DNA of 46,615 bases from a virus, in the IMG/VR virus record IMGVR_UViG_3300045988_123937, positions 1 through 46,615 of that record; one strand, 5' to 3'. The notes beneath the pieces were generated by a model, which made no database searches, had not been told where the DNA came from, and worked only from the letters and a program-made list of their open reading frames with translations. The position numbers and the translations under genes were made by a program. Positions 5,187 to 34,282 of the stretch are shown here, one piece after another (the stretch's first letter is position 1; every line of letters begins with the position of its first letter).

Positions 5187-6488
5187 TTACTCGGTCGGTC
5201 CTGCTGTTGCTTTCTCGATGGCGGCCAGAGCGGTGTTGATGTCGGCGACATAGATATTCGCTTTCATATCCGGCCGTGTAACGAGGGCTTGCCCGCGATA
5301 CCACAGCCACAGACGATACGAATCCGTCTCCGGGACGCGCTCGATCTCCATAGTGATATTGCGCTTGTCGTGCAGCTGGAGCGTCGTGGAATCGAGCACG
5401 ACGAGCTCCGAGGCCGAGAGTTTCGGGGTCGGGATAATCGTCATGCCATGCACCGACAAGGCCCCATTGGGCAGCACCGTGATGTAGTCGCCGAGGGTGT
5501 TCTTCAGCGTGCGCATCTTGAATTCGGTGGCATAGTTCATCAGCACGTAATTCGGAGCCATCGAATCGTTGGTCTCGATCTTTGCCTGCGTTTTCATGGC
5601 GAGGATCAGGTCGGCGATGTTCGGTGCTGACGCGCTGGTTGCCACACCCGCCGTCGTTGCATTGAATGCCGTAACGCCGGATGTTTTCAGTCCGTAGATG
5701 TGTTTGGGCTTGGAGGCATCCACGCCGTCACCGCCCCACAGCAGAGAATCGAGTTTGGCTGCGATCCCCTGCTGGGCCTTCGTCTGCGCCCATGCCAGGA
5801 AGTACCCGAAATCTTCGGCGCTCTCAGCCGAGAAAGGAAGCACGGAACCGAGTTTTGCCAGCTCACGGTATTTGCCCGTAAGCGTGGCGGTGTCGGTATT
5901 GGTGTGTTTTGTCATCTCCTCTGCATACCCGGTGCCGTCGGTGTAGGAAGCATCGTTGTACATGATGCGGTTCTTGTCGTCGGGCACATTGATGTGCGTG
6001 AAGAGTTGCACGAACGCATTGCGGGGGCTGGCGTCTGCGTAAATCTTCGTCGTCAGCACGGTGCGGTTGGGGTCTTCGTTCGTCACGGCCGACGTGTCGA
6101 GTTTGAGCGCGAACTCACCCGTCGATACTCTGCCTCGTCCGTTCCGCATATCCTTATATGCGGCGGCGAACTCTTCCGATTTCAGCACCTCTTCCATAGC
6201 GGCGACCAGCGTTTTGTGTCCCTCCTGCTTGGGAGCGCCTTTCTTCATCGTGGCGATCTCGACGCCTTGAGCTTTAAGCGCGCCCTCCAGTTTTTCGATC
6301 TTCGCCGGCGACAGCCCGAGTTTCCCGAACTCCTCCTTGACAGCCTCGACGATCTCGTTCTGTGACTTGATGCCTGCGGCCATCTCCTCGAACTGCCCTT
6401 TGATATAATCTCCGAGCGCGTTCAGGCCTTTTTTCTCATCCTCGCTGAACTCTACGCCAGCGGGAAGCACAAATGATTTAATCTCCAT
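5187..6488 (-). CDS. Major capsid protein, HK97 fold, with an N-terminal coiled-coil delta domain
   Basis: 433 aa, follows the prohead protease; charged helical N-terminus followed by a capsid-like body. Confidence 0.85.
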   Translation of the reverse strand: MEIKSFVLPAGVEFSEDEKKGLNALGDYIKGQFEEMAAGIKSQNEIVEAVKEEFGKLGLSPAKIEKLEGALKAQGVEIATMKKGAPKQEGHKTLVAAMEEVLKSEEFAAAYKDMRNGRGRVSTGEFALKLDTSAVTNEDPNRTVLTTKIYADASPRNAFVQLFTHINVPDDKNRIMYNDASYTDGTGYAEEMTKHTNTDTATLTGKYRELAKLGSVLPFSAESAEDFGYFLAWAQTKAQQGIAAKLDSLLWGGDGVDASKPKHIYGLKTSGVTAFNATTAGVATSASAPNIADLILAMKTQAKIETNDSMAPNYVLMNYATEFKMRTLKNTLGDYITVLPNGALSVHGMTIIPTPKLSASELVVLDSTTLQLHDKRNITMEIERVPETDSYRLWLWYRGQALVTRPDMKANIYVADINTALAAIEKATAGPTE

Positions 6489-7211: not shown

Positions 7212-8450
7212 TTATACGATATATTTCAAAAGTTCTGTTTTAGCCTGCTCCGTAGTCATCAGACCTCCGGACACGGCGTTATTCAAGGCATTTACAAGAT
7301 TGGTCATGCCCGCCGCCTGTTCGCGCTTAGATTCTTGGAATAACTCAAGATGATCGTAGTAGGGCATAACCTTGAAATCCTCAAAGCCATATATCCTGTT
7401 GAGCACGGAGAATATATTATTTGCCTCGGGGATTATCGCGTCGTTATATAATATCGTTTTCGCTTCTTTGGCGTTGGCGTACGTTGAACCCTCTACGTCG
7501 AGCAGCACGCTCGGCACTTGGTAGATGTCCGCGATTTCCTTCTTGCAGGCTTTCTGCACGTCTGTCAGTCCCAGATCGGTAATCGTTGACGATACCGGAC
7601 TTACGGCAGCTTTCATGGACGTGATAGCGTATTTGAATTGATCGGCCCGGATGCCGTACTTTCTGAATGCCTGTTGTATGTTATTCTTCTCCGACTCTGT
7701 TTCCGGCAGCCGAGCATCTCGAATAATATCGCCGCTTCCGGATGTCAGCGAGATAATAGCCAGCATACCGCGGTTGATCATCAGTTCATGCACAGCTTCG
7801 TAGGATGCTACGAAAGTATTCACCGGCTCCTGTAATGATACCATTCGGGAGATGTTGCCGCCGCAAGCATTGAGATCATAAGAGGCATCTCTAACGATGA
7901 ACATATCTTCTTTGGCTATCTTCATCGAAGACCCGCAAATGATCACCGTGTAATCCACGATATCCGCATCGGGCATGAACGATAACGCCGGAGATATTGC
8001 GGCATTTTCCGTGACGCAAAGATTGGGGACAACGAACAGCTCGAAAGCTCCCGGAAGCCCCACCGATTCCATGCGTACGATATAGGCTTTGCCGAAAATC
8101 TGCGTCATGGCCTCGATGTGTGCCACGAAGTCCGCGATGCCCTGCACGCTATTAGGATGCGACATGGTCCGCACGGCGTCCGGTCGTTCGAGGTCTTCAC
8201 CATCTTCCGTGGTGGCTGCAAGACGTAGATTCTTAATTGCCGCGCATTTCTTCGAGATTACAGACATCAGCGGCGAGCAAAGTGCGTATGCTTTGGCTTG
8301 TCCCGCTTTGCCCCTGGTGTCGATCGTCCCCACGGTTTCAGTTGATCCCTGAAATACCGGAGGTACGCCGATGTAGCTCAATGTCGATGCCGGCAAATTT
8401 GAGGCTGTATTATTGCTTTTCCTGCGTATTTCGTAGCCGAATAGATTCAT
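7212..8450 (-). CDS. Portal protein
   Basis: 412 aa directly downstream of the large terminase and upstream of the protease. Confidence 0.85.
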   Translation of the reverse strand: MNLFGYEIRRKSNNTASNLPASTLSYIGVPPVFQGSTETVGTIDTRGKAGQAKAYALCSPLMSVISKKCAAIKNLRLAATTEDGEDLERPDAVRTMSHPNSVQGIADFVAHIEAMTQIFGKAYIVRMESVGLPGAFELFVVPNLCVTENAAISPALSFMPDADIVDYTVIICGSSMKIAKEDMFIVRDASYDLNACGGNISRMVSLQEPVNTFVASYEAVHELMINRGMLAIISLTSGSGDIIRDARLPETESEKNNIQQAFRKYGIRADQFKYAITSMKAAVSPVSSTITDLGLTDVQKACKKEIADIYQVPSVLLDVEGSTYANAKEAKTILYNDAIIPEANNIFSVLNRIYGFEDFKVMPYYDHLELFQESKREQAAGMTNLVNALNNAVSGGLMTTEQAKTELLKYIV

Positions 8451-9685
8451 TATGCAGCTATTTGAATAAGATTCTTGAATTCAGACTGAACGGCATATCT
8501 GGCAGCGTCCCATAGATGGTTGAATTCGTCGTGCGGGTAGTTTATGGCGATGCCGTTCACCGTCTCCCACACGTACGAGTTTGCTTCTATCTGCATGTTG
8601 CGCGAACGCACGCAATGTATCTTGCATCCTTTCATGGACGTGATGCCGTCCATGACAGACCCCGGGTATTTCCGCACGGGGATGACCGTAAGCCCTTTAA
8701 TGCGCATTGCGGTTATCATGCTTTCGGGGGATTTGGCATATTTGTCGGCGCTATCTGCATAACATCGGGATACTCCGTTTGAGAAGTGCGGCGAAAGCGC
8801 TGCATATAATTTCGAAGTGTCGTCGATAGGCTGATATATCAGCTCCTGCAAATAAAGATGGTTCGGGGCGCGGAATCCGACACGTACGCAGGCCGTGGGG
8901 TCTGCTGTGAATCCGAAGTCGAGGCCCAATACAACGCGTTCGATGTCTTCGGGGAATTCGTCGATCCAGTCGATGTCGGGGAATATCAGCCCCTCCTGCG
9001 CGGCACGTACTCCGAGGCCGTACACTTTCCAGCGCCATTCGTCGGCAGTTCCGGCGGCGATATTCTCGGGAGTGGGTTCGTATCCCTCGATTGTGCGGCG
9101 AACCCCCGCCGGGCAGAAGGGATTATCCTTGTACGTCGTGTGCGTGAAAATAGTATCCGGAGCGCCCTCCATATGGAACGCCCAATGCTCCGTGTATTTT
9201 GGGTTCCAGTCGCCAATGACCATCCGCGTGCAACGCATGGTGATATTGTCGAATTGCGCACGGCTTACACCGTCGAGCATCTCGTTGAAATATACGATGT
9301 CGCAGTCATGGCCCTCTTTGACATCCATTTTGTCGAGACCCCGGAAACGAATCACGCTATCCTTGATGCGATATTCGGGGAGAATGTTTTCGCCACGCAT
9401 ACAATCGGGATCGTATGCGCCGCGTAATTGCAGCTTCTTGCGGAAGTCGTCCAGCGTCTTTTCCTTGCAATCTTGAAGCGTGGCCCGATAACAGTATATT
9501 TTAAGAGGTACGGACGATGATGCGCAGATGTCATACAGAAAGTCTGCCGTGTCGAAAGTTTTTCCGGATCGGGAGCTTCCTTCGTCGAAGATACGGACGA
9601 CGGCGCCGCTCCCGGCGTATAGCTGGTAGAGGTACATCTTGACTTTGTAGGTCTTGCCTCTGTATGTTACGGGATCGGGCGTCAT
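8450..9685 (-). CDS. terL: Terminase large subunit
   Basis: 411 aa; Walker A-like GSSRSGKT; C-terminal nuclease-like half; canonical position. Confidence 0.9.
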   Translation of the reverse strand: MTPDPVTYRGKTYKVKMYLYQLYAGSGAVVRIFDEGSSRSGKTFDTADFLYDICASSSVPLKIYCYRATLQDCKEKTLDDFRKKLQLRGAYDPDCMRGENILPEYRIKDSVIRFRGLDKMDVKEGHDCDIVYFNEMLDGVSRAQFDNITMRCTRMVIGDWNPKYTEHWAFHMEGAPDTIFTHTTYKDNPFCPAGVRRTIEGYEPTPENIAAGTADEWRWKVYGLGVRAAQEGLIFPDIDWIDEFPEDIERVVLGLDFGFTADPTACVRVGFRAPNHLYLQELIYQPIDDTSKLYAALSPHFSNGVSRCYADSADKYAKSPESMITAMRIKGLTVIPVRKYPGSVMDGITSMKGCKIHCVRSRNMQIEANSYVWETVNGIAINYPHDEFNHLWDAARYAVQSEFKNLIQIAA

Positions 9686-14382: not shown

Positions 14383-14679
14383 TTAGTTCTTTGATGTTAG
14401 GTTTTTTATGGTTTCGGAAAGGTTCTCGATGGTGCGCTGCTGGGAGGCAACCAAAGCCAGCAATGCGGGAACCGTGGGAGCGGGGGCGACGTTGGAGTCG
14501 TCGATAACGTAATCGTCAATGTCGGCATATCGACTGCATAATATGTCCATATGCTCAGGCGTAAATCCGTCGCCGTTCTTCTCCATTCGAGAAATGCGGC
14601 TTTGATCCATTCCCAACATATTTGCGAGTGCCGCCTGTGTTAACCTTTTGTCTTTTCGAAAACGTTTGAAATCAATCAT
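14383..14679 (-). CDS. XRE-family HTH regulator, 98 aa, paralogue of 13054..13470
   Basis: MIDFKRFRKDKRLTQAALANMLGMDQSRISRMEKNG; trimmed to the ATG at 14679. Confidence 0.8.
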   Translation of the reverse strand: MIDFKRFRKDKRLTQAALANMLGMDQSRISRMEKNGDGFTPEHMDILCSRYADIDDYVIDDSNVAPAPTVPALLALVASQQRTIENLSETIKNLTSKN

Positions 14680-14832
14680 ATACAAAGGGACTATTAAAAA
14701 ACCTATAAAAATATGACATAAAATTTGCATAATTAAAATAATATGTACATATTTGCATTGTGATACACGGCAAAGGTATAGTTACCTGCCGATTATTAAA
14801 ATGTAAAAATATACAAAAAAACGATAATAACA
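14680..14832. promoter_or_regulatory. Divergent control region 2 (early-operon promoter and operators)
   Basis: Two TTTGCAT motifs; leader hairpin CGGC-aa-AGGTA-tagt-TACCT-GCCG; about 85 nt similar to 13551-13640. Confidence 0.6.
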
Positions 14833-15094: not shown

Positions 15095-15457
15095 ATGAAA
15101 ACTGACGCCCTATTGAGCAAACGCGAGCGTGAGGTAATGAACCTCGTCGTGCTGGGCTATTCGGCCCGCGAGATCGCAGAACGGATGAACGTGATCTACC
15201 AATGCGTAGCGAACCACCTCCAGAGCATCTACGATAAGACAGGGACGAAGCGGACCTTGCAGGCATTGGTTACCTGGTATTTCACGCAGAATTTCGGCAT
15301 CACGCTCAACGTGTCCGAGATGACCCGACGCGTCGGGGCCGCGGTTCTGCTGTGCCTGTTCTCGGTGGAGGTGTTCAGTACGGATTTCGAATGTCGCAGG
15401 TTGCGCAATCCCCGCCGAAGCCGAGGCTTCCGGGTGGAAGAGCTGATAGAGAACTAA
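15095..15457 (+). CDS. LuxR/GerE-type HTH regulator with a C-terminal hydrophobic segment
   Basis: REREVMNLVVLGYSAREIAERMNVIYQCVANHLQSIYDK. Confidence 0.7.
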   Translation: MKTDALLSKREREVMNLVVLGYSAREIAERMNVIYQCVANHLQSIYDKTGTKRTLQALVTWYFTQNFGITLNVSEMTRRVGAAVLLCLFSVEVFSTDFECRRLRNPRRSRGFRVEELIEN

Positions 15458-15474
15458 ACCAACAACACAACAAT

Positions 15475-15945
15475 ATGGAAACGAATTACGAAGAGGTGAA
15501 AGACAGCCTTCTGTCTTTTGGAAAGAAACATTTGGCCTGCCAATATGAATATAAGCGTCTTTATGCGGCTGAAAGTGTCGAGGCGGTTATGGCAGTCGTT
15601 AAAGATAATTTCTCATGGTGTTGTCAATTCTACGATTTTGCCGATGTTCTTTTGGCATACCGGGATCAGTTCGCCGAACATAAAATATGGATCAACACTT
15701 CTGTTGAAATTAAAGAAGGGGTTGGTTGCCTGTTGACTACGGAAGGCGAATTCAACGCCGAGAGCTGGGGAACCTCGATGATCAACGCCGAGAGCTGGGG
15801 AACCTCGACGATCAACGTCCGAGAGCTGTGGAACCTCGACGATCAACGCCCGGAGCCGGGGAGCCTCGACGATCAACGCCCGGAGCCGGGAAGCCTCGAC
15901 GATGATTATCCCTACTTCGGCTATCGAATGCCAAGTAAACGATGA
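15475..15945 (+). CDS. Decapeptide-repeat protein, apparently frame-disrupted. The annotated frame ends at 15945; the alternative frame continues to 16021.
   Basis: Repeats NAESWGTSMI/NAESWGTSTI, then a 1-nt insertion (T15818). The +1 frame restores NAESCGTSTI/NARSRGASTI/NARSREASTM plus a 39-aa tail. Confidence 0.6.
   Translation: METNYEEVKDSLLSFGKKHLACQYEYKRLYAAESVEAVMAVVKDNFSWCCQFYDFADVLLAYRDQFAEHKIWINTSVEIKEGVGCLLTTEGEFNAESWGTSMINAESWGTSTINVRELWNLDDQRPEPGSLDDQRPEPGSLDDDYPYFGYRMPSKR
15753..15903. repeat. Five tandem 30/31-bp repeats, each junction carrying GATC
   Basis: Units start at 15753, 15783, 15813 (31 nt), 15844 and 15874; caacgccgagagctggggaacctcga(t/c)gat and variants. Confidence 0.9.
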
Positions 15946-16027
15946 AAGCATCGCACGGTATATCCAAGACAATAGAGCTGTATTCGCGGATGATTCTATA
16001 AAATTCGAGAAGCAGGGATAGTAACAA

Positions 16028-16124
16028 GGAGTGCGTGGCAGGTTGGCAATGCCTCCGCATAACTAACGGAAGGAGATGTGAAGTAAAGCACCATCTACGC
16101 AGGTTCGAATCCTGCCGCACTCCC
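16028..16124 (+). ncRNA. Aberrant tRNA-like element: 8-bp acceptor plus 5-bp T arm, long variable arm, 9-nt anticodon loop
   Basis: GGAGTGCG pairs with CGCACTCC; T arm GCAGG-TTCGAAT-CCTGC; D arm GGCA/TGCC; V arm AGATG..CATCT; anticodon arm TCCG-CATAACTAA-CGGA. Confidence 0.55.
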
Positions 16125-16530
16125 AAGATAGCAGCCCGCAAGGGTTAGGGGTTTGATCGCTGGCAATAACCCCAGCCGCAAGGCAGAAAGCGATTTTCGG
16201 GTCTTTGACGTATTGATACACGAGAACCATCCGAGTGGATGTAAAACCCAGTGAGCGACTTGGCGCAGAAGGGCTGGCAACAGATAAATACCAACGAGCG
16301 AGCGATGATCCGGAGCGATCCGGTGAGCCGTATCAACACTATGCCCGGTGTGGTTTGAATGTACCTATCCGGACTCCAATGCGGGTTTTGTGCACACGTT
16401 CTTTCTGTCCATTTTGTAATTTAAGTTAGTGGTTATCACACCGCGCAAAGCCCGCACCCTTGCCCTGATGGCGCCGATGCACGTGATCGGTGAGCCTTGC
16501 CTTCGATGGCGTCAGGGCACGAATACCTTA
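16125..16530 (+). ncRNA. Candidate large structured non-coding RNA (family unassigned)
   Basis: No credible ORF. Hairpins with GNRA caps at 16135-16144, 16175-16184, 16187-16196, 16274-16283 and 16310-16323; nested helices at 16148/16173 and 16199/16249; long hairpin at 16461-16519. Confidence 0.5.
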
Positions 16531-16543
16531 AAATTTCAAAACT

Positions 16544-16789
16544 ATGGAGAATTTAAAAAAGCCACAAGCTCGCATATTGGCCTACTTCATCAGAGGAGGC
16601 ACGCTGACCGTGTGGAAAGCGATGAGCAAATTCGGCACGACGGAGCTGCGGAAGATTGTCACGAGGCTCCGGCGCAAAGGCTACATCATCGTTGGCGATT
16701 GGTGTTACAGCCACGACGCAGACAGAGGGCGGGTTGTCCGCTACAAAGAGTATCATATGGTCGTTAACCCTGAAATTGCACAAATATGA
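16544..16789 (+). CDS. Winged-helix DNA-binding protein, 81 aa
   Basis: ARILAYFIRGGTLTVWKAMSKFGTTELRKIVTRLRRKGYII pattern. Confidence 0.7.
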   Translation: MENLKKPQARILAYFIRGGTLTVWKAMSKFGTTELRKIVTRLRRKGYIIVGDWCYSHDADRGRVVRYKEYHMVVNPEIAQI

Positions 16790-17046
16790 AAACCGATACA
16801 TTCAAAACCCGAAAATTTCTGGGTATTGACTTCACTCCGCGAAAGAGATACCGTGCGGAGATCGAACGGCTTGAGCGAGTAAATGCGGACATCCGTCGGA
16901 GCTTTGCCGAAGGCGAGAAAGATCGCAATAACCTTCTGAAAAAGTGCGCCGAGGAACGCAACCTGCGTATTGCCGTCGAACTCGATCTGATGAAATATAC
17001 CCGGAAGAGAGGCGCCGACGGGCGTTTCGTCAAAGAAAAGGCGTGA
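16786..17046 (+). CDS. Hypothetical coiled-coil protein, 86 aa
   Basis: ATGA overlap with the upstream gene; charged helical sequence. Confidence 0.6.
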   Translation: MKTDTFKTRKFLGIDFTPRKRYRAEIERLERVNADIRRSFAEGEKDRNNLLKKCAEERNLRIAVELDLMKYTRKRGADGRFVKEKA

Positions 17047-17112
17047 CGACGCCTTACTTACGTCATAACAAGAACCGTCGCCCGCCATCCGTGAGGCCCG
17101 CGGGCGATATTT

Positions 17113-17197
17113 GGAGGGTTGGCCGAGTGGTTGAAGGCTCCGGCTTACTAATCCGGCGAGCGGCAACGCTTCGGGAGTTCGAATCTCTCACCCTCCG
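17113..17197 (+). tRNA. Type II (Ser-like) tRNA with an atypical anticodon arm; the nominal anticodon ACU sits in loop TTACTAA closed by a C-U mismatch (or a 9-nt loop, CTTACTAAT)
   Basis: Acceptor GGAGGGT/ACCCTCC; D arm GCC..GGC with AGTGGTTGAA; long V arm GAGCG-GCAA-CGCTT; T arm GGGAG-TTCGAAT-CTCTC. Confidence 0.7.
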
Positions 17198-17343
17198 CAA
17201 CCCCTTTGTTGATGGTGCAAGTAGAGCGACGATAGCGCAAGGGATTATTGCCGATTGCGCGGCAATGACAAAGCGGAACAGACGCTTGACTCTATCGGAC
17301 AGGTTATACGAAAGCATCTGACAGCCTGGAAAGACAGGCATTT

Positions 17344-17414
17344 TGAGCTATGGTGTAATGGTAACACATCACCCTTTGGAGGTGGCGCTTCCGGTTCGAA
17401 TCCGGGTAGCTCAA
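17344..17414 (+). tRNA. tRNA-Gln (anticodon UUG)
   Basis: Acceptor TGAGCTA/TAGCTCA (U1-A72); D arm GTGT/ACAC; anticodon loop CTTTGGA; T arm TCCGG-TTCGAAT-CCGGG. Confidence 0.85.
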
Positions 17415-17590
17415 CAGGGGAGCGATCCCCACGTTGTTAGTTTGATCGAAGGGTCATTCAATCAACGGAAGCGATAGAGGGTATATCCCTCGACAATCCG
17501 AGGCCGCGTGAAAAGAGTAGCAAGGCCGAGGCGGAAGCTCACGAAACGGGCAAAGAACGCAAACCGGCGGCGCGGAAGCTGTGTCGCCAC

Positions 17591-17623
17591 CGCGGGGGAT
17601 CGTCGTAAGTCCCCCGCATTTTT
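17591..17623 (+). terminator. Rho-independent terminator closing the RNA island
   Basis: GCGGGGGA-tcgtcgtaag-TCCCCCGC followed by ATTTTTT. Confidence 0.8.
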
Positions 17624-17645: not shown

Positions 17646-17810
17646 ATGCAGAGTTATATCAAGGAGCTCAAAGAAAAGGGTCTCGTGCCTTTACGGCTCG
17701 ATAGAAACACGGTAATCTTGGTTCCTCCGGAGAAAGCCAATGAGAAATACAAGGCGCGCTACCTCAAAAACGCCGAGAGGTCGCGGAGGATGGCAACGCA
17801 TTTAGATTAG
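17646..17810 (+). CDS. Small hypothetical protein, 54 aa
   Basis: ORF 17508..17810 trimmed to the ATG at 17646; the upstream part contains the terminator. Confidence 0.5.
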   Translation: MQSYIKELKEKGLVPLRLDRNTVILVPPEKANEKYKARYLKNAERSRRMATHLD

Positions 17811-17812
17811 TT

Positions 17813-19024
17813 ATGAATTACGGATTACCTTATAAGGGTTCTAAGAATAATATTGCGAAATGGGTTATTTCGAATCTTCCCGCGTCGCATACGTTCGTGG
17901 ATTTGTTCGCCGGAGGATGTGCGGTAACTCACGCTGCCATATTGTCTGGTAAATTCGGACGTTTCATTGCAAATGATATTACGGAATATCCCCAAGTCTT
18001 CCGTGATGCCATCGATGGGAAATACCGGAATGAATGTCGATGGATCAGTCGGGAGGATTTCTTCCGTCTCAAAGATGACGACCCCTACGTGCGTCTTTGC
18101 TGGAGCTTTGGGACTGGTATGCAGACATATCTATATGATCCGGAGGTTGAGCGGTTCAAGAATCACCTGCACGCGGTATTTTTCGCGGGAACGCCCACGA
18201 GCGCGCGGTTGGCATGGAAAGGATTTGTCCGGGAATTTGCAAAAGTCCGTGATGAAATAGGAGAGCTGACGCAAAAGGTGCTGAAGTTGTGCGCAGCGTG
18301 CGACGTGGCACCTCAATACAATGCGGACGGCACATTGAATACAAAGGCGATACATACAGATGTTTTTCGGGTTAAATCAGCGTATTTGCGAAAATATTTA
18401 CAGAACGCCCTGAAATTATCCGGTCTTACGCAAAAAGATGTCGACCGACACCTTGGGAATTATATGAGTAGGCATTATTTTGGCGAATCTCAATGGATGT
18501 TGCCATCCTCTGAACAATACGAGAAGTTGCAAGAAATTTTACCGGCGTTAACTATTCCGTGGGCGTCCTTAAACGAAAGTCTGCAAAGACTGGAAAGACT
18601 GCAAAGTCTGCAAAGTCTGGGAAGTCTGCAAAGTCTGGAAAGTCTGCAAAGACTGCAAAGACTGCAAAGACTGGAAAGTCTGCAAAGTCTGGAAAGACTG
18701 AAACTGCCCCGAAAGGATTACAGCGATGTTGCTATACCGCCGGGCGCGACGGTATACTGCGACCCGCCGTATGCTAACACGACGGGGTATATCGACGATT
18801 TCGACCATGAACGATTTTATAGATGGCTGCGGAGCATGGAATTCCCGGTGTTCGTTTCGGAATATTCCATGCCGGACGACTTTATATGCTTTGCGAGTAT
18901 TGACAAAGCATGCACCTATCCATCATCAAAAACGATAAAACGCGTAGAAAAGATGTTCGTACACGAGCGGTGGGCGGATGCTGTGAGGCGTCCGGATGAT
19001 AATGTTCAGGGGCGGCTGTTCTAA
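17813..19024 (+). CDS. N6-adenine DNA methyltransferase (Dam/D12 class) with an internal tripeptide-repeat insert
   Basis: N-terminal YKGSKNNIAKWV...FVDLFAGGCAV (AdoMet motif) and C-terminal VYCDPPY catalytic motif. Confidence 0.8.
   Translation: MNYGLPYKGSKNNIAKWVISNLPASHTFVDLFAGGCAVTHAAILSGKFGRFIANDITEYPQVFRDAIDGKYRNECRWISREDFFRLKDDDPYVRLCWSFGTGMQTYLYDPEVERFKNHLHAVFFAGTPTSARLAWKGFVREFAKVRDEIGELTQKVLKLCAACDVAPQYNADGTLNTKAIHTDVFRVKSAYLRKYLQNALKLSGLTQKDVDRHLGNYMSRHYFGESQWMLPSSEQYEKLQEILPALTIPWASLNESLQRLERLQSLQSLGSLQSLESLQRLQRLQRLESLQSLERLKLPRKDYSDVAIPPGATVYCDPPYANTTGYIDDFDHERFYRWLRSMEFPVFVSEYSMPDDFICFASIDKACTYPSSKTIKRVEKMFVHERWADAVRRPDDNVQGRLF
18578..18703. repeat. 14 tandem copies of the 9-bp unit AGWCTGSAA inside the methyltransferase gene
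   Basis: Encodes (S/R)L(Q/E/G/K) x14, in frame, just upstream of the DPPY motif. Confidence 0.9.
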
Positions 19025-21042: not shown

Positions 21043-21714
21043 ATGAAAGAGTTAATCGCCATCCAATCGGAATTGAAAGCCCCCAAAGGGCAGTATAACA
21101 GCTTCGGAAAATACAAATATCGAAGCTGCGAGGATATTCTCGAAGCGGTCAAACCGATACTCAAGGCGCACGAATGCGCCCTGAACCTGTGCGACGACAT
21201 CGTCGCCGTCGGGGACCGCTACTACGTGAAGGCCACGGCGCGCATCACGAACGCCGCCGGAGAGGTCGAGACGGCAACGGCCTTTGCCCGCGAGGACCTC
21301 GACAAGAAGGGTATGGACGGGTCGCAGATAACGGGTACAGCGTCCAGTTATGCCCGCAAATATGCCCTTAACGGGTTGTTCTGCATCGACGATACGAAAG
21401 ATGCGGACACGGACAAGTGGCACACGGAGAACGCCAACCGGGCGGCGGCACAAAATACCAAAACAGCACAACCGTCCACGGTCCCGGCAACTGCTCCGGC
21501 CCGCAAGCGCATCACTATGGAACACCTGGACAACCCCATTGCCTGCGATCGGCTGATGAAATGGATGTATGGATTTCTCACTACGGCCAACTATGCCGCG
21601 GATTTCGACGCCGGAGCGCAATTGCTGAAATCACACGATGCCGATGCGGAAGTCGTCGATCGCTTCTCGGCGCTCTTTGAATCATACCGTCAGGCTCGGA
21701 AAAATGCGAAGTGA
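21043..21714 (+). CDS. erf: ERF-family single-strand annealing recombinase
   Basis: KGQYNSFGKYKYRSCEDILEAVKPILKAHECAL...SYARKYALNGLF signature. Confidence 0.8.
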   Translation: MKELIAIQSELKAPKGQYNSFGKYKYRSCEDILEAVKPILKAHECALNLCDDIVAVGDRYYVKATARITNAAGEVETATAFAREDLDKKGMDGSQITGTASSYARKYALNGLFCIDDTKDADTDKWHTENANRAAAQNTKTAQPSTVPATAPARKRITMEHLDNPIACDRLMKWMYGFLTTANYAADFDAGAQLLKSHDADAEVVDRFSALFESYRQARKNAK

Positions 21715-24571: not shown

Positions 24572-25309
24572 ATGAACAAAGAGATTAAAATATCGATCAA
24601 GAGCCGCTGGACAGGTTCTATCCTTTTCGAGTATTCGAGCGTTGGCAATACGCTTGCCAAAACGGTAACGGAGGCCTTGAAAGGCGGAGCCAACCTGAGC
24701 GGAGCCAACCTGCGCGGAGCCGACCTGCACGGAGCCGACCTGTACGGAGCCGACCTGCGCGAAGCCGACCTGCACGGAGCCGACCTGCGCGAAGCCGACC
24801 TGCGCGGAGCCAACCTGTACGGAGCCAACCTGAGCGAAGCCGACCTGCGCGGAGCCAACCTGCGCGGAGCCGACCTGTACGGAGCCAACCTGCGCGAAGC
24901 CGACCTGCGCGGAGCCGACCTGCGCGGAGCCAACCTGCGCGAAGCCAACCCGCGCGGAGCCGACCTGCGCGAAGCCATAGGTACATACATGGCTTGCCCC
25001 ACCGATGGCAGTTTTATCGGCTGGAAGAAGGCTTCGGAATATATCGTGAAGCTGCAAATCCCGGAGGATGCCCGCCGCAGCTCTGCCGGAGGCGAAAAAT
25101 GTCGCTGCGACAAAGCCTATGTGGTGGAGATTCAGAATGCTGATGGAACTAAAGCCGACATCGAGACAGTTCATTCGAACCATGATGCGAACTTCGTGTA
25201 TACGGTCGGCGCTACCGTCGAGGTCTCCGACTTTGACGGTGACCGCTGGAACGAATGTGCTCCGGGTATCCACTTCTTCATCGACCGCCGGGCGGCCGTG
25301 GAGTATTAA
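24572..25309 (+). CDS. Pentapeptide-repeat protein with a conserved C-terminal domain
   Basis: About 19 consecutive A(N/D)LxG/E units (24684-24975), then ...CAPGIHFFIDRRAAVEY. Confidence 0.8.
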   Translation: MNKEIKISIKSRWTGSILFEYSSVGNTLAKTVTEALKGGANLSGANLRGADLHGADLYGADLREADLHGADLREADLRGANLYGANLSEADLRGANLRGADLYGANLREADLRGADLRGANLREANPRGADLREAIGTYMACPTDGSFIGWKKASEYIVKLQIPEDARRSSAGGEKCRCDKAYVVEIQNADGTKADIETVHSNHDANFVYTVGATVEVSDFDGDRWNECAPGIHFFIDRRAAVEY

Positions 25310-25320
25310 CGGGAGACGCT

Positions 25321-26199
25321 ATGAAAGTCATCGTCACCTTTTCGGGCGGGAAAGACAGCCTTGCAGCGCTGTTGTGGACCCGGGAACATATCACCAAGAA
25401 TTTCACGACCGTATTCTGCGATACGGGCTGGGAGCATCCGCTGACTTACGAATACATCCACCGTGTTGCCGACAAGTTGCATCTCGACCTGGTAACATTG
25501 AAGTCGAAGAAGTACGACGGGATGGTTGATCTTGCGCGGCAGAAAAAGCGCTGGCCCTCGACGCGGGCTCGATTCTGCACGGAAGAACTCAAAACCAAGC
25601 CAACGATCGATTACGTGCTGGACGAGGTTCAGGACAATATGCTGATGATCCAGGGCATCAGAGGTGCGGAATCTCCGGCGCGAGCCAAGATGTCGGCACA
25701 ATGTACGTACTTCAAGTGCTATTTCGAGCCTTGCGGTTACGACAAAAACGGCAAGCCGAAAAAGCATACCTACCGGAGTAAGGATATTCGGGCATTTCGG
25801 GAAAAGTTCGCCGACGATCTTTTGCGTCCCGTGTTCGATTGGTCGGCGCAGCAGGCGATCGATTACATTCTCGCCGCCGGGTTGGAGCCGAACCCGCTCT
25901 ACCGGATGGGCTACAAGCGTGTCGGTTGCTGGCCGTGCGTAATGGCGAATCAGCGGGACATCCTGAACATCGCCCGGCAGGCTCCGGAGCGGATTGATCA
26001 GCTCGCAACCCTCGAAAGTGAATTGAGGTCCTCGTTTTTCGCCCCGGGCATGATCCCATCCCACGCGATCGCCAGCGGCGAGAAATATCCGACGATCCGA
26101 GATGTCGTGCGCTATGTCAAGTGGCAGAACGCCACGGGCAGCCTGTTCGATGACGACACGGCAACGAGTTGCATGAGCTATTACGGATTATGCGAATGA
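25321..26199 (+). CDS. PAPS-reductase/PP-loop ATPase family protein (DNA-modification associated)
   Basis: MKVIVTFSGGKDSLA PP-loop; trimmed to the ATG at 25321. Confidence 0.75.
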   Translation: MKVIVTFSGGKDSLAALLWTREHITKNFTTVFCDTGWEHPLTYEYIHRVADKLHLDLVTLKSKKYDGMVDLARQKKRWPSTRARFCTEELKTKPTIDYVLDEVQDNMLMIQGIRGAESPARAKMSAQCTYFKCYFEPCGYDKNGKPKKHTYRSKDIRAFREKFADDLLRPVFDWSAQQAIDYILAAGLEPNPLYRMGYKRVGCWPCVMANQRDILNIARQAPERIDQLATLESELRSSFFAPGMIPSHAIASGEKYPTIRDVVRYVKWQNATGSLFDDDTATSCMSYYGLCE

Positions 26200-32876: not shown

Positions 32877-32921
32877 TGGAGAATACGAGATTCGAACTCG
32901 TGACCTCTTGCATGCCATGCA
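32877..32921 (-). other. attP core candidate: 3' portion of a tRNA gene (T arm plus acceptor strand)
   Basis: Minus strand reads ...GCAAGAGGTCACGAGTTCGAATCTCGTATTCTCCA; no matching 5' half is present. Confidence 0.7.
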
Positions 32922-33052: not shown

Positions 33053-34282
33053 ATGAACAACCACTACTATTCAAAGGATGGCGTAACGGTGGCCACTATT
33101 CTCGACACCCGCCGGGCGTTGGCAAATGGCCAGTATCCCGTGCGTATCCGGGTATCGTATCGTCGTGTGCGCTCTTATTACCCAACCGGTAAGAGTATGA
33201 TGCCCGATGATTGGCAGCGGCTCAATGCGACGCGCCTTCATTCGCTTGTATCCGTTCGCAAAGATATAGAAAATAGTTTTGAATTGGTTCGACAAGCTGT
33301 CGAGGATTTAACGTCAAAAGGTTGTTTCACGATTGAATTGTTAGGTGCTCGTTTGAAAGGAGCCGGCGCTACTTCGGTAAATGCATCCATCCAAATCAAA
33401 GAGCAGGAATTGCGGGAGACATCCCACATAGGGACGGCGGATATTCTGCGTGCATTGTTGCTGTCGATGAATGCTTTTTCAAAGCGGGAGGTTCAATATA
33501 TCGACGTATCTATTTCATGGCTGCGTCGATTCGAAGAGTTTATGCGTGCTTCGGGTAAGGGACAGACAACTATTGCGATATATATGCGCGCTCTGCGATC
33601 GATATTCAACCAGGCACGGGCTATTGGTATTGTAAAGGAAGCGCAATATCCATTCGGTCGGGGGCGCTACGAGATACAGGAAGGAGAGGGGCGTAAACTG
33701 GCCCTTACATTGGAGCAGATAGGCTTGATAGCCCGTTATGATGATGGATACGAAGCAACAGCAAAATACCGCGATTATTGGCTGTTTATGTATTTGTGCA
33801 ATGGAATCAATGTCGCCGACTTCGTAAGGTTGCGATATAGTGATATTGAGGACGGGGAAATAAGTTATGTACGGAAAAAGACGGAGCACCGCACAAAGTC
33901 CCGGAAAGCCGTGCGGGCGATAATTGTACCTCAAATGCAGGATATTATATCACGATGGGGCAACAAAGAAAGTCCTGATAGTTTTATATTTCCTATTCTT
34001 ACGGGCAAAGAATCTATTGAGGAGCAGCGGCAAAAGGCAAAAGACCTAACAAGCTGCATAAATCGTAAATTTAGGTCTATTTCCAAAGCATTAGGGTTGC
34101 CTCCGGTTTCAACATATACGGCCCGCCATTCATTCGCCACCGTATTGAAGCGTTCCGGGGCAAGTATAGCCTATATTTCCGAAAGCCTCGGACATACGGA
34201 CTTGAAGACGACAGAAAATTATCTCGCTTCTTTTGAACGAGAAGAACGAGAGAAAAATGCCGCATTGCTGACGCGGTTTTGA
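33053..34282 (+). CDS. int: Tyrosine site-specific integrase
   Basis: 409 aa; ARHSFATVLKRSG...LGHTDLKTTENYL catalytic region; N-terminal arm-binding-type domain. Confidence 0.9.
   Translation: MNNHYYSKDGVTVATILDTRRALANGQYPVRIRVSYRRVRSYYPTGKSMMPDDWQRLNATRLHSLVSVRKDIENSFELVRQAVEDLTSKGCFTIELLGARLKGAGATSVNASIQIKEQELRETSHIGTADILRALLLSMNAFSKREVQYIDVSISWLRRFEEFMRASGKGQTTIAIYMRALRSIFNQARAIGIVKEAQYPFGRGRYEIQEGEGRKLALTLEQIGLIARYDDGYEATAKYRDYWLFMYLCNGINVADFVRLRYSDIEDGEISYVRKKTEHRTKSRKAVRAIIVPQMQDIISRWGNKESPDSFIFPILTGKESIEEQRQKAKDLTSCINRKFRSISKALGLPPVSTYTARHSFATVLKRSGASIAYISESLGHTDLKTTENYLASFEREEREKNAALLTRF

What the first reader, a model, noticed from the sequence alone, without database searches (positions are those of the whole stretch)
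16028..16124. tRNA-like element with selenocysteine-type 8/5 geometry but no UCA anticodon
GGAGTGCG pairs with CGCACTCC (8 bp) and abuts a 5-bp T stem (GCAGG-TTCGAAT-CCTGC) directly. There is a long variable arm (AGATG..CATCT plus extra pairs) and a 4-bp D stem. The anticodon arm has only 4 bp (TCCG/CGGA) and closes a 9-nt loop, CATAACTAA. An 8+5 acceptor/T stack plus a long V arm is the bacterial tRNA-Sec architecture, also seen in allo-tRNA-like species. Here the loop lacks UCA and contains CTA without a preceding U33. It may be a decoding oddity, a tRNA mimic that serves as the 5' domain of the adjacent structured RNA, or a decayed tRNA.
Basis: partly seen in the sequence, partly recalled or inferred. 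Interest (0 to 1): 0.6.

Follow-up and report, generated by a model that had tools for sequence, protein, structure and literature searches.

The report
Anticodon-less tRNA mimic heading phage RNA
A real tRNA-shaped element in a gut-phage genome is not a selenocysteine-type or decoding tRNA; it is a tRNA-derived module with a freely swappable "anticodon" part that sits at the 5' end of a large, undescribed structured phage RNA.

Summary
All the pairs described are present at 16028-16124. The Rfam tRNA model scores the element 34.2 bits (cut-off 29), but ARAGORN rejects it.

It is not Sec-like. I compared about 130 related contigs from temperate phages, probably of Alistipes. The 7-bp acceptor stem and the D stem are kept by compensatory changes, and the T arm is invariant. 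The extra G16028:C16123 pair is unpaired in 6 of 18 core variants and is never compensated. Geometry is therefore the canonical 7/5.

The anticodon arm plus long variable arm is the one part that is not conserved. At the same site, relatives carry one of the following:
- unrelated structured inserts that make the element 111-223 nt long;
- a 36-nt acceptor/T minihelix with nothing else (8 contigs);
- a plain 10-bp hairpin.

What follows the element is constant. There is a 9-nt linker, then a covarying hairpin-pseudoknot module. This module opens a roughly 300-400-nt non-coding structured RNA that is absent from Rfam and present in at least 119 viral contigs.

Best reading: a non-decoding, tRNA-derived module that forms or defines the 5' end of a large phage ncRNA. 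It would act as an RNase P/RNase Z entry site or a terminal helix. The closest analogues are plant-mitochondrial t-elements and the tRNAs linked to GOLLD RNA. A decoding oddity is unlikely.

The parts
16028..16028 (+). Nucleotide -1 (G).
   Evidence: Sequence. Across the family the -1:73 pair is G:C in 12 of 18 cores, unpaired in 6, and never compensated.
16029..16035 (+). Acceptor stem 5' strand, GAGUGCG (positions 1-7).
   Evidence: Rfam alignment. Pairs 1-72 (GC/AU/GU) and 6-67 (CG/UG/UA) change on both sides; pair 2-71 alternates AU/GU/GC.
16036..16053 (+). U8, G9, D arm and C26. The D stem is 16038-16041 with 16049-16052 (G13.A22), and the D loop is GUUGGCA with G18 and G19. Position 14 is G rather than the usual A.
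   Evidence: D-stem pairs 11-24, 12-23 and 13-22 covary between classes. A G-to-A change at 16051 breaks pair 11-24 in 3 of 11 variants of the 97-nt class.
16054..16070 (+). Anticodon-position arm. It reads either as UCCG/CGGA plus the 9-nt loop CAUAACUAA, or as a 5-bp stem with C31.A39 plus the 7-nt loop AUAACUA (U33, 'AAC', U37). This is the variable peripheral domain.
   Evidence: The arm is invariant within the 97-nt class. It is replaced by unrelated inserts or deleted in other classes.
16071..16098 (+). 28-nt variable arm: 7 bp plus a C bulge, with an 8-nt loop.
   Evidence: Two uncompensated pair-breaking changes and one wobble change occur within the class. The arm is absent from other classes.
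16099..16115 (+). T arm, GCAGG-UUCGAAU-CCUGC.
   Evidence: Invariant in all classes, except U54C in 6 contigs. One relative, L170, has a different tRNA-type T arm, CCGGG-UUCGACU-CCCGG.
16116..16123 (+). Acceptor 3' strand CGCACUC (positions 66-72) plus the discriminator C73.
   Evidence: The discriminator is C or A across the family.
16038..16044 (+). GCAGGTT heptamer, repeated at 16099-16105. Recombination between the two copies gives the 36-nt minihelix variant.
   Evidence: Sequence. The minihelix GGAGTGCGTGGCAGGTTCGAATCCTGCCGCACTCC occurs in 8 contigs. It folds at -23.3 kcal/mol, z = -5.2.
16124..16132 (+). Conserved linker CAAGAUAGC between the tRNA-like element and the ncRNA.
16133..16146 (+). 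P1 hairpin, AGCCC-GCAA-GGGUU.
   Evidence: The outer pairs covary: AU in 14 and CG in 11 sequences at one pair; AU, GU and GC at the next.
16148..16195 (+). Pseudoknot module. P2 is GGGGUU (16148-16153) with AACCCC (16168-16173). The P2 loop GAUCGCU (16155-16161) pairs with AGCGAUU (16189-16195). P3 is GCC-GCAA-GGC (16175-16184).
   Evidence: 97.8% of cells are paired, against 26-50% when the partners are slid. Five pairs change on both sides, including two in the pseudoknot helix.
16196..16405 (+). Remainder of the conserved structured ncRNA core. It includes a T-loop-like hairpin GCCCGG...CCGGAC (16343-16374) and the conserved motif GUGCACACGUUCUUUC. A further large hairpin lies at 16461-16519, before the next ORF at 16544.
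   Evidence: The reading frame is not conserved. RNAalifold on 8 diverse homologues predicts 52 pairs, 15 of them with compensatory changes. Inverted repeat I14. No Rfam family matches.

Best explanation
The element is a tRNA-derived, non-decoding RNA module. It lies in the early rightward operon of a temperate phage whose host is probably Alistipes.

The selected part is the tRNA 'top half' plus elbow: a 7-bp acceptor stem stacked on an invariant 5-bp T arm, with a D arm. The position of the anticodon arm is a peripheral slot that tolerates any content.

The module is joined by a 9-nt conserved linker to a roughly 300-400-nt pseudoknotted ncRNA, and is probably co-transcribed with it.

The mechanism I think most likely is inferred, not shown. 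The tRNA shape would recruit the host tRNA-processing machinery. RNase P would cut before G16029 (or G16028), and RNase Z would cut after C16123. This would detach the ncRNA from the upstream mRNA and fix its 5' end. Alternatively, or in addition, the 12-bp acceptor/T helix would stay attached as the terminal helix of the ncRNA. Both roles need only the minihelix. That would explain why relatives manage with a bare minihelix or a simple 10-bp hairpin.
For: **Shown**
1. The element has tRNA shape: Rfam tRNA 34.2 bits and a cloverleaf MFE fold.
2. The tRNA core is under structural selection. Over 18 distinct cores from five size classes, 93.5% of cells are paired, against 39-56% with slid partners. 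Five pairs change on both sides, in the acceptor and D stems.
3. The anticodon/variable region is not conserved. At the syntenic site downstream of a LuxR-type gene, 55 of 80 anchored loci have the element. They split as 97-nt 20 (+3 damaged), 111-nt 12 (+2 whose acceptor mismatches failed the screen), minihelix 8, 120-nt 5, 208-nt 5 and 154-nt 1. Classes of 223 nt and about 215 nt also exist.
4. The linker plus the P1/P2/pseudoknot/P3 module follows in nearly all cases and covaries. It opens a large structured, non-coding RNA found in at least 119 viral contigs.
5. In L086, L107, L201, L082 and L187 a plain hairpin occupies the tRNA-like position directly 5' of P1 (L086 hairpin: -21.1 kcal/mol, z = -4.9). 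In L170 a different tRNA-type acceptor/T arm does.
6. No intrinsic-terminator-like site on the + strand separates the element from its neighbours. U-tract terminators follow the ncRNA in L086 and L170.
7. The phage's genuine tRNAs (Ser, Gln) and this element all lack an encoded CCA, and all have N73-CA(A/G) trailers.

**Precedent**
- Plant-mitochondrial t-elements and acceptor-like stem-loops act as RNase P/Z signals (PMC1920247).
- tRNAs lie next to ROOL RNA and next to, or covalently linked to, GOLLD RNA.
Against: - There are no expression or end-mapping data, so processing and co-transcription are inferred.
- One contig (L013 = L104) lacks the 5' acceptor strand altogether. L003 and L040 have about 1 kb inserted between the element and the pseudoknot. 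The coupling is therefore not obligatory.
- Within the 97-nt class, four substitutions break pairs without compensation, and U54 is C in 6 contigs. This fits relaxed constraint.
- The invariance of the T arm is partly ascertainment, because several searches used it as the pattern. It may also reflect recombination at the GCAGGTT repeat rather than selection.
- Some inserts keep hairpins by compensatory change: the 120-nt class, and TL2 in relatives. The slot may therefore carry functions that this model does not explain.
Confidence: 0.55

Rival explanations
1. It is a tRNA pseudogene. A former class-II phage tRNA is decaying in a recombination-prone tRNA island, with no present function. Its association with the ncRNA is only physical linkage.
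For: - Pair-breaking, uncompensated substitutions occur in the 97-nt class, together with the T-loop change U54C.
- Deletion variants arise through the GCAGGTT repeat, and one contig has a 5' truncation.
- ARAGORN rejects the element.
- A14 is replaced by G, position 37 is U, and C31.A39 is a mismatch.
Against: - Compensatory changes in the acceptor and D stems across classes indicate continued selection for the fold.
- The element, or a helix substitute, is present in 55 of the 62 anchored loci that hold at least about 1 kb of sequence downstream of the anchor gene.
- An unrelated tRNA-type arm sits at the same place in L170.
- The minihelix retains a perfect 13-bp helix.
Confidence: 0.17
2. 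It mimics the acceptor end of a tRNA. Either it is aminoacylated (G-1:C73 is the HisRS identity set, and HisRS can charge microhelices), or it acts as a decoy or sponge for host factors or defence toxins that recognise tRNA shape or the 3' end.
For: - G16028:C16123 reproduces the tRNA-His G-1:C73 signature in the 97-nt and minihelix classes.
- Related phages carry further anticodon-less tRNA-shaped RNAs, TL2 and TL3. This suggests a use for tRNA shape as such.
- Phage tRNAs are known counter-measures to tRNA-targeting defences (PMC10264068 and PMC11555353, listed).
Against: - The -1:73 pair and the discriminator are not conserved: A.C, U.C, G.A and A.A all occur, and position 73 is C or A.
- Acceptor sequences covary freely, which is not expected for an identity set.
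- Plain hairpins substitute for the element.
- No CCA is encoded.
- Nothing links the element to a defence system.
Confidence: 0.12
3. It is a functional decoding tRNA with an expanded or unusual anticodon loop: a Sec-like, allo-tRNA-like, suppressor or frameshift-decoding tRNA.
For: - It passes the Rfam tRNA gathering score.
- The 17-nt anticodon arm is identical in all 26 contigs of the 97-nt class.
- The neighbouring tRNA-Ser(ACU) also has a mismatched 31-39 pair, and its loop shares ACUAA.
Against: - There is no UCA, and no U33-NNN-R37 arrangement in any register.
- The arm is swapped or deleted in syntenic homologues.
- The discriminator varies.
- The reading-frame analysis shows no sign of stop-codon reassignment.
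- The invariance of the arm is not significant: P is about 0.15 that 9-10 variable sites in 97 nt all miss it (my calculation).
- ARAGORN is negative.
Confidence: 0.04

Closest known systems
Plant-mitochondrial t-elements: tRNA-like processing signals, with acceptor-like stem-loops as minimal versions (PMC1920247)
   Same: - A non-canonical cloverleaf with a well-conserved GGTTCRANYCC T arm.
- No decoding role.
- It sits at the boundary of another transcript.
- A graded series runs from tRNA-like element to simple stem-loop at equivalent positions.
   Different: - The system here is a bacteriophage of Bacteroidota, not an organelle.
- The neighbour is a large structured ncRNA, not an mRNA.
- Cleavage by RNase P or RNase Z has not been demonstrated here.
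- The anticodon slot here carries large, diverse structured inserts.
tRNAs adjacent to ROOL RNA, or adjacent or covalently linked to GOLLD RNA, in phages and prophages (bioRxiv 10.1101/2024.12.08.627333; PMC5737381)
   Same: A large, pseudoknotted phage-borne ncRNA lies in a tRNA island, with a tRNA-shaped unit physically joined to it.
   Different: - Neither the GOLLD nor the ROOL covariance model matches.
- The RNA here is smaller, about 300-400 nt.
- The attached unit is anticodon-less and variable rather than a normal tRNA.
Bacterial tRNA-Sec (8/5) and allo-tRNAs (8/4, 9/3) (PMC5389517)
   Same: - A long variable arm.
- An acceptor helix that can be drawn with 8 bp in this copy.
   Different: - No UCA anticodon.
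- The D arm is not a 6-bp stem with a tetraloop.
- The discriminator is C, not G or U.
- The T stem is 5 bp, so the element is not 8/4 or 9/3.
- The 8th pair is not maintained in homologues.
tRNA-His G-1:C73 and histidine-accepting microhelices (from my own knowledge; G-1 is also mentioned in PMC5389517)
   Same: G at -1 lies opposite C73 on a 7/5 frame, and the minihelix variant keeps this arrangement.
   Different: - No GUG anticodon.
- A long variable arm is present.
- The -1:73 pair is lost in 6 of 18 family cores.
tRNA-like units used as processing handles for other RNAs: the mascRNA/MALAT1 pair and the MHV68 tRNA-miRNA units (from my own knowledge)
   Same: A tRNA-shaped unit is fused to a functional non-coding RNA, and RNase P or RNase Z defines the partner's end.
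   Different: - Those are eukaryotic or herpesviral systems.
- The order and the partners differ.
- Nothing has been tested here.

Membership tests
Bacterial tRNA-Sec | UCA anticodon in a 7-nt loop | tested here: not met
   The loop is CAUAACUAA, or AUAACUA in the 7-nt reading. It contains no UCA.
Bacterial tRNA-Sec | 13-bp acceptor branch (8/5), maintained | tested here: not met
   The 8th pair can be drawn in this copy. Across the family it is G:C in 12 cores and unpaired in 6, with no compensation. Rfam aligns the element as 7/5.
Bacterial tRNA-Sec | 6-bp D stem with a 4-nt D loop | tested here: not met
   The D stem is 4 bp (or 3 bp plus G.A), and the loop is 7-9 nt.
Bacterial tRNA-Sec | G73 discriminator and a long variable arm | tested here: not met
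   The variable arm is long (28 nt). The discriminator is C, and A in some relatives.
Bacterial tRNA-Sec | selA/selB/selD genes or SECIS-containing genes in the same genome | not tested
   I scanned 30 of the larger ORFs, and none was a sel gene. The host genome is not available.
allo-tRNA | 12-bp acceptor branch arranged as 8/4 or 9/3 | tested here: not met
   The T stem is 5 bp, GCAGG/CCUGC. Definition taken from PMC5389517.
allo-tRNA | Sec-like long D stem with a tetraloop, and a G73 or U73 discriminator | tested here: not met
   The D stem is 4 bp with a 7-9-nt loop, and position 73 is C.
Canonical elongator tRNA (Rfam RF00005) | Covariance-model score at or above the gathering score | tested here: met
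   34.2 bits against 29, but only with the permissive filters. The default run missed it.
Canonical elongator tRNA (Rfam RF00005) | 7-nt anticodon loop with U33 and a purine at 37, closed by a 5-bp stem | tested here: not met
   The 7-nt reading requires a C31.A39 mismatch and has U37. The alternative is a 9-nt loop.
Canonical elongator tRNA (Rfam RF00005) | Called by a dedicated tRNA finder | tested here: not met
   ARAGORN is negative in the window and in 48 loci. tRNAscan-SE was not available.
Canonical elongator tRNA (Rfam RF00005) | Anticodon arm conserved among orthologues | tested here: not met
   The arm is replaced by unrelated inserts or deleted at the syntenic site.
tRNA-His | G-1:C73 plus a GUG anticodon | tested here: not met
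   G-1:C73 is present in this copy. There is no GUG, and the pair is not conserved across the family.
t-element-type tRNA-like processing module | Non-canonical cloverleaf with a conserved GGTTCRANYCC T arm and an intact acceptor helix | tested here: met
   The T arm reads GGTTCGAATCC. The acceptor and D stems covary.
t-element-type tRNA-like processing module | The ends of the element coincide with RNA termini made by RNase P or RNase Z | not testable with these tools
   No transcript data are available.
GOLLD / ROOL large phage RNAs (for the attached ncRNA) | Match to the family covariance model | tested here: not met
   No Rfam hit at E <= 1 (window and seven loci) or E <= 10 (15400-17600), other than tRNA and noise.
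tmRNA | tRNA-like domain split around a tag-encoding region, detected by ARAGORN or Rfam | tested here: not met
   Both acceptor strands lie within 97 nt. There is no tmRNA call at this site.

The most novel reading that the evidence does not exclude
The element may belong to an undescribed class of modular, tRNA-scaffolded phage RNAs. In this reading a conserved tRNA chassis (acceptor, D and T arms) stays covalently attached to a new ornate ncRNA of gut Bacteroidota phages, about 300-400 nt long. The chassis would display interchangeable structured domains in place of the anticodon arm. The tRNA part would be a working component of the assembly, for example a handle for tRNA-binding host factors or a T-loop docking module, rather than a disposable processing signal. 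This would parallel the tRNAs linked to GOLLD nanocages.
Probability: 0.25. Interest if true: 0.75.

Novelty: new variant of a known kind. Interest (0 to 1): 0.55.

Why it matters
- It removes a false lead. There is no selenocysteine or allo-tRNA decoding system here.
- It shows that tRNA-gene calls in phage genomes can hide tRNA-shaped RNAs that do not decode. Related phages carry at least three such families.
- It points to a widespread large structured RNA of human-gut phages that is not in Rfam and has a tRNA-derived 5' module.
- The natural series from tRNA-like element to minihelix to hairpin is a ready-made mutational experiment on what the 5' module must provide.
- If the tRNA part recruits RNase P and RNase Z, this would be a bacterial-virus counterpart of the organellar t-element punctuation system.
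- If the tRNA part stays attached, it adds a second example, after GOLLD, of tRNAs built into large phage RNAs.

Tried and rejected
1. **Stop-codon reassignment that would call for a suppressor.** ORF-length comparisons under TAG, TGA or TAA read-through gave no convincing signal.
2. **Antisense regulation.** The loop CAUAACUAA is exactly complementary to 17807-17815, which spans the start codon of the methyltransferase gene. But the same site occurs next to all classes, including the minihelix, and its variants (TTAGCTATG, TTGGTTATG) are not compensated. About 0.2 exact hits per strand are expected by chance. I rejected this as probably chance.
3. **attP or an integration site.**
   - There is no second copy of the T-arm/acceptor 25-mer in the window.
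   - Only one of 185,579 species genomes has the 25-mer, and that hit is a prophage in an Alistipes MAG.
   - The integrase has its own tRNA/tmRNA 3'-end fragment next to it, at 32880-32915.
4. **Known RNA families for the inserts and the downstream RNA** (ribozymes, riboswitches, group I introns, GOLLD, ROOL, YrlA). No Rfam hits.
5. **Introns.** The inserts are too small for group I introns. They extend the anticodon stem as continuous helices, and removing them would not leave a 7-nt anticodon loop.
6. **A protein-coding reading of 16235-16429.** The frame and the C-terminus are not conserved.
7. **GenBank phages.** No relative was found apart from a 73-nt tRNA-Gln match.
8. **Phage-encoded RNA-processing or Ro-like proteins.** None were found among the 30 ORFs scanned.
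9. **Sigma-70 promoter and terminator scan.** It was uninformative, and Bacteroidota promoters are not covered by it.
Full report
**Context**

The window is a temperate phage genome of about 46.6 kb. Genes found:
- terminase, 8450-9685 (-);
- portal, 7212-8450 (-);
- major head protein, 5187-6488 (-);
- tape measure protein, 43660-46098 (-);
- integrase, 33053-34282 (+);
- ERF recombinase, 21043-21714 (+);
- DNA methyltransferase, 17813-19024 (+).

A CI-type HTH gene lies at 14383-14730 (-). It faces a rightward operon that holds a LuxR-type gene (15095-15457), a repeat-containing ORF (15475-15945), the element (16028-16124), about 420 nt without a conserved reading frame, a winged-HTH gene (16544-16789), tRNA-Ser(ACU) at 17113-17198 and tRNA-Gln(UUG) at 17344-17415.

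Only one of 185,579 species genomes contains the element's T-arm/acceptor 25-mer. That hit is a prophage in an Alistipes MAG. GenBank phages hold no relative.

**Observation**

The unconstrained MFE fold is exactly that cloverleaf, at -35.2 kcal/mol and z = -2.96.

The Rfam tRNA model matches 16029-16123 at 34.2 bits, above its gathering score of 29. The match appears only with the permissive filters, and the default run missed it. ARAGORN does not call it, here or in any related locus.

Rfam draws a canonical 7/5 tRNA:
- acceptor 16029-16035 with 16116-16122;
- U8 and G9;
- D stem with G13.A22;
- a 5-bp anticodon stem ending in C.A;
- loop AUAACUA, with U33 present but U at position 37;
- a 28-nt variable arm;
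- discriminator C16123.

The single sequence does not decide between the two drawings.

**Homologues**

Two exact-pattern scans of IMG/VR found 48 contigs.
- 26 contigs carry copies 94-100% identical over the 97 nt (90 of 97 nt in L013).
- 8 contigs carry a 36-nt minihelix, GGAGTGCGTGGCAGGTTCGAATCCTGCCGCACTCC. It can be produced by deletion between the two GCAGGTT heptamers at 16038-16044 and 16099-16105.
- In the remaining contigs the T arm is preceded by unrelated sequence.

In that last group the 5' acceptor strand and a normal D arm are in fact present, but 96-197 nt upstream of the T arm. The family therefore comes in size classes of 97, 111, 120, 154, 208 and 223 nt, plus another of about 215 nt (L153). 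The classes differ in what occupies the anticodon-arm and variable-arm position.

Rfam's tRNA model also scores the 111- and 120-nt classes at 42-45 bits.

To avoid selecting on the element itself, I anchored on the upstream LuxR-type gene. Of 80 loci, 55 contain the element within 3 kb:

| Class | Loci |
|---|---|
| 97 nt | 20 (+3 damaged) |
| 111 nt | 12 (+2 with acceptor mismatches) |
| minihelix | 8 |
| 120 nt | 5 |
| 208 nt | 5 |
| 154 nt | 1 |

Most of the other loci are truncated shortly after the anchor gene.

**Which geometry is conserved?**

I aligned 18 distinct cores, each made of positions -1 to 26 joined to positions 49 to 74, and counted pairs.
- 93.5% of cells are paired, against 39-56% when the 3' partners are slid.
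- Five pairs change on both sides:
  - 1-72 (G-C, A-U, G.U);
  - 6-67 (C-G, U.G, U-A);
  - 11-24 (C-G, U-A);
  - 12-23 (U-A, A-U, G-C);
  - 13-22 (C-G, U-A, G.A).
- Pair 2-71 alternates A-U, G.U and G-C.
- The -1:73 pair is G:C in 12 cores and unpaired in 6 (A.C, U.C, G.A, A.A), with no compensation.
- U8 is invariant, position 9 is a purine, and the D stem is the canonical 10-13/22-25.

The maintained geometry is therefore 7/5, not 8/5. The discriminator is C or A.

tRNA-Sec is defined by a 13-bp branch, a 6-bp D stem with a tetraloop, and UCA. Allo-tRNAs are defined by 8/4 or 9/3 branches with G73 or U73 (PMC5389517). None of these features is met, apart from the long variable arm.

**Within the 97-nt class**

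Eleven distinct sequences have nine variable columns.
- The 17-nt anticodon-position arm never varies. That is not significant: P is about 0.15 that the variable sites all miss it.
- No pair shows compensation.
- Four changes break pairs:
  - G16035A in the acceptor;
  - G16051A in the D stem, in 3 of the 11 variants;
  - two in the variable arm.
- U54 is C in six contigs.

So this class gives no positive evidence that its anticodon and variable arms are functional, and some evidence of relaxed constraint.

**What is conserved is downstream**

After the discriminator comes the linker CAAGAUAGC, followed by:
- a GNRA-capped hairpin P1 (16133-16146);
- helix P2, GGGGUU/AACCCC (16148-16153 with 16168-16173);
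- hairpin P3 (16175-16184);
- a pseudoknot between the P2 loop GAUCGCU (16155-16161) and AGCGAUU (16189-16195).

On 25 distinct sequences, 97.8% of cells are paired, against 26-50% when slid. Five pairs change on both sides, two of them in the pseudoknot helix.

This module opens a long structured region.
- The only sizeable ORF, 16235-16429, changes frame and C-terminus between relatives.
- RNAalifold on eight diverse homologues predicts 52 pairs, 15 of them with compensatory changes. These include a hairpin with a T-loop-like cap at 16343-16374.
- No Rfam family matches.
- The 18-nt pseudoknot pattern alone hits at least 119 viral contigs.

**The key comparison**

I looked at what precedes P1 in those contigs.
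- Most have the T arm and acceptor of this family.
- L170 has a different tRNA-type arm, GGGUGAU...CCGGG-UUCGACU-CCCGG-AUCACCC-U, followed by CAAAUAGCC.
- L086, L107, L201, L082 and L187 have only a stem-loop of about 10 bp. The L086 hairpin folds at -21.1 kcal/mol with z = -4.9; the minihelix folds at -23.3 kcal/mol with z = -5.2.

A helix of tRNA-top-half size at the 5' edge of the ncRNA is thus the common denominator. The D arm and the anticodon slot are optional.

Two exceptions show that the coupling is not absolute:
- L003 and L040 have about 1 kb between the element and the pseudoknot.
- L013 has lost the 5' acceptor strand.

**Interpretation**

*Shown:*
- a tRNA-shaped fold under structural selection;
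- a non-conserved anticodon region;
- tight linkage to a covarying large ncRNA;
- substitution of the element by a minihelix or hairpin.

*Inferred:*
- The element works through its acceptor/T helix, either as an entry site for RNase P and RNase Z or as the terminal helix of the ncRNA.
- The genuine phage tRNAs and this element share CCA-less N73-CA(A/G) trailers. This fits a common 3' processing route.
- The closest described analogues are plant-mitochondrial t-elements, where non-canonical cloverleaves and even acceptor-like stem-loops direct RNase P/Z cleavage (PMC1920247), and the tRNAs found next to ROOL and next to or covalently linked to GOLLD in phages.

**Rivals**

- *A functionless tRNA relic.* This fits the uncompensated substitutions and the deletions. 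It does not fit the cross-class covariation or the independent tRNA-type arm in L170.
- *A His-type acceptor mimic or a decoy for tRNA-targeting factors.* G-1:C73 and the presence of other anticodon-less tRNA-shaped RNAs (TL2, TL3) in related phages prompt this idea. However, the identity nucleotides are not conserved.
- *A decoding tRNA.* This is the least likely reading. No register gives U33-NNN-R37, there is no recoding signal, and the arm is dispensable.

**Dead ends**

- The loop is perfectly complementary to the methyltransferase start region at 17807-17815. It shows no class specificity and no covariation.
- attP lies elsewhere.
- No RNA-processing proteins were found.

**Verdict**

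The Sec-type reading is not supported.

The element is a new variant of a known kind, namely tRNA-like modules attached to other RNAs. Its interest comes mainly from two things:
- the hypervariable anticodon slot;
- the uncatalogued large ncRNA it heads.

Noticed in passing
window 16125-16520: A large structured, apparently non-coding RNA directly follows the element. It contains the P1 hairpin, a P2/pseudoknot/P3 module, a T-loop-like hairpin at 16343-16374, the conserved motif GUGCACACGUUCUUUC (16390-16405) and a 17-bp-arm hairpin at 16461-16519. It exists in at least two alternative versions of its middle domain, occurs in at least 119 viral contigs, and has no Rfam match.
   Followed up: partly
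window 17113-17198: tRNA-Ser has the unusual anticodon ACU (A34) and a C31.U39 mismatch. It can also be drawn as a 4-bp stem with the 9-nt loop CUUACUAAU, which shares ACUAA with the candidate's loop. It is conserved in about 50 related loci.
   Followed up: no
window 15752-15903, inside ORF 15475-15945: Five tandem 30-nt repeats encode a 10-residue protein repeat. Copy number differs greatly between related contigs, and the whole ORF is absent from many relatives. In those relatives the tRNA-like element directly follows the LuxR-type gene.
   Followed up: partly
window 32880-32915 (- strand): A T arm plus acceptor 3' strand fragment, GGTCACGAGTTCGAATCTCGTATTCTCCA, gives a weak Rfam tmRNA match (12.8 bits). 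It lies about 140 nt from the integrase start at 33053 and is probably the phage attP core.
   Followed up: partly
L002, L008, L016, L023, L024, L027 and others (for example L016 9847-9942, - strand): A second tRNA-shaped family, TL2, is 96-97 nt long (GACGCAG...CUGCGUC-G). A covarying hairpin of about 17 bp replaces its anticodon arm. A third family, TL3, is 73 nt with the loop CGCGCAA. Both occur in related phages 2-4 kb downstream of the main element. ARAGORN calls neither, and neither is in this window.
   Followed up: partly
window 17807-17815: TTAGTTATG spans the methyltransferase start codon and is the exact complement of the candidate's 9-nt loop. It shows no class specificity and no covariation in relatives, so the match is probably chance.
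   Followed up: yes
window 16038-16044 and 16099-16105; also the junctions in the 111-nt class and in L013: The heptamer GCAGGTT recurs at deletion and mosaic junctions: the minihelix deletion, the V-loop/T-stem junction GCAGGTTGCAGGTT, and the L013 5' truncation. It looks like a recombination hot spot that shuffles the 5' parts of the element.
   Followed up: partly
L003 5509-6492 and L040: About 1 kb of extra DNA is inserted between the 3' end of the tRNA-like element and the pseudoknot module. I did not examine its content.
   Followed up: no
window 24572-25309: A pentapeptide-repeat protein with a DUF5758 domain lies next to a PAPS-reductase-like gene (25255-26199). It may be an anti-defence or DNA-mimic function.
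   Followed up: no
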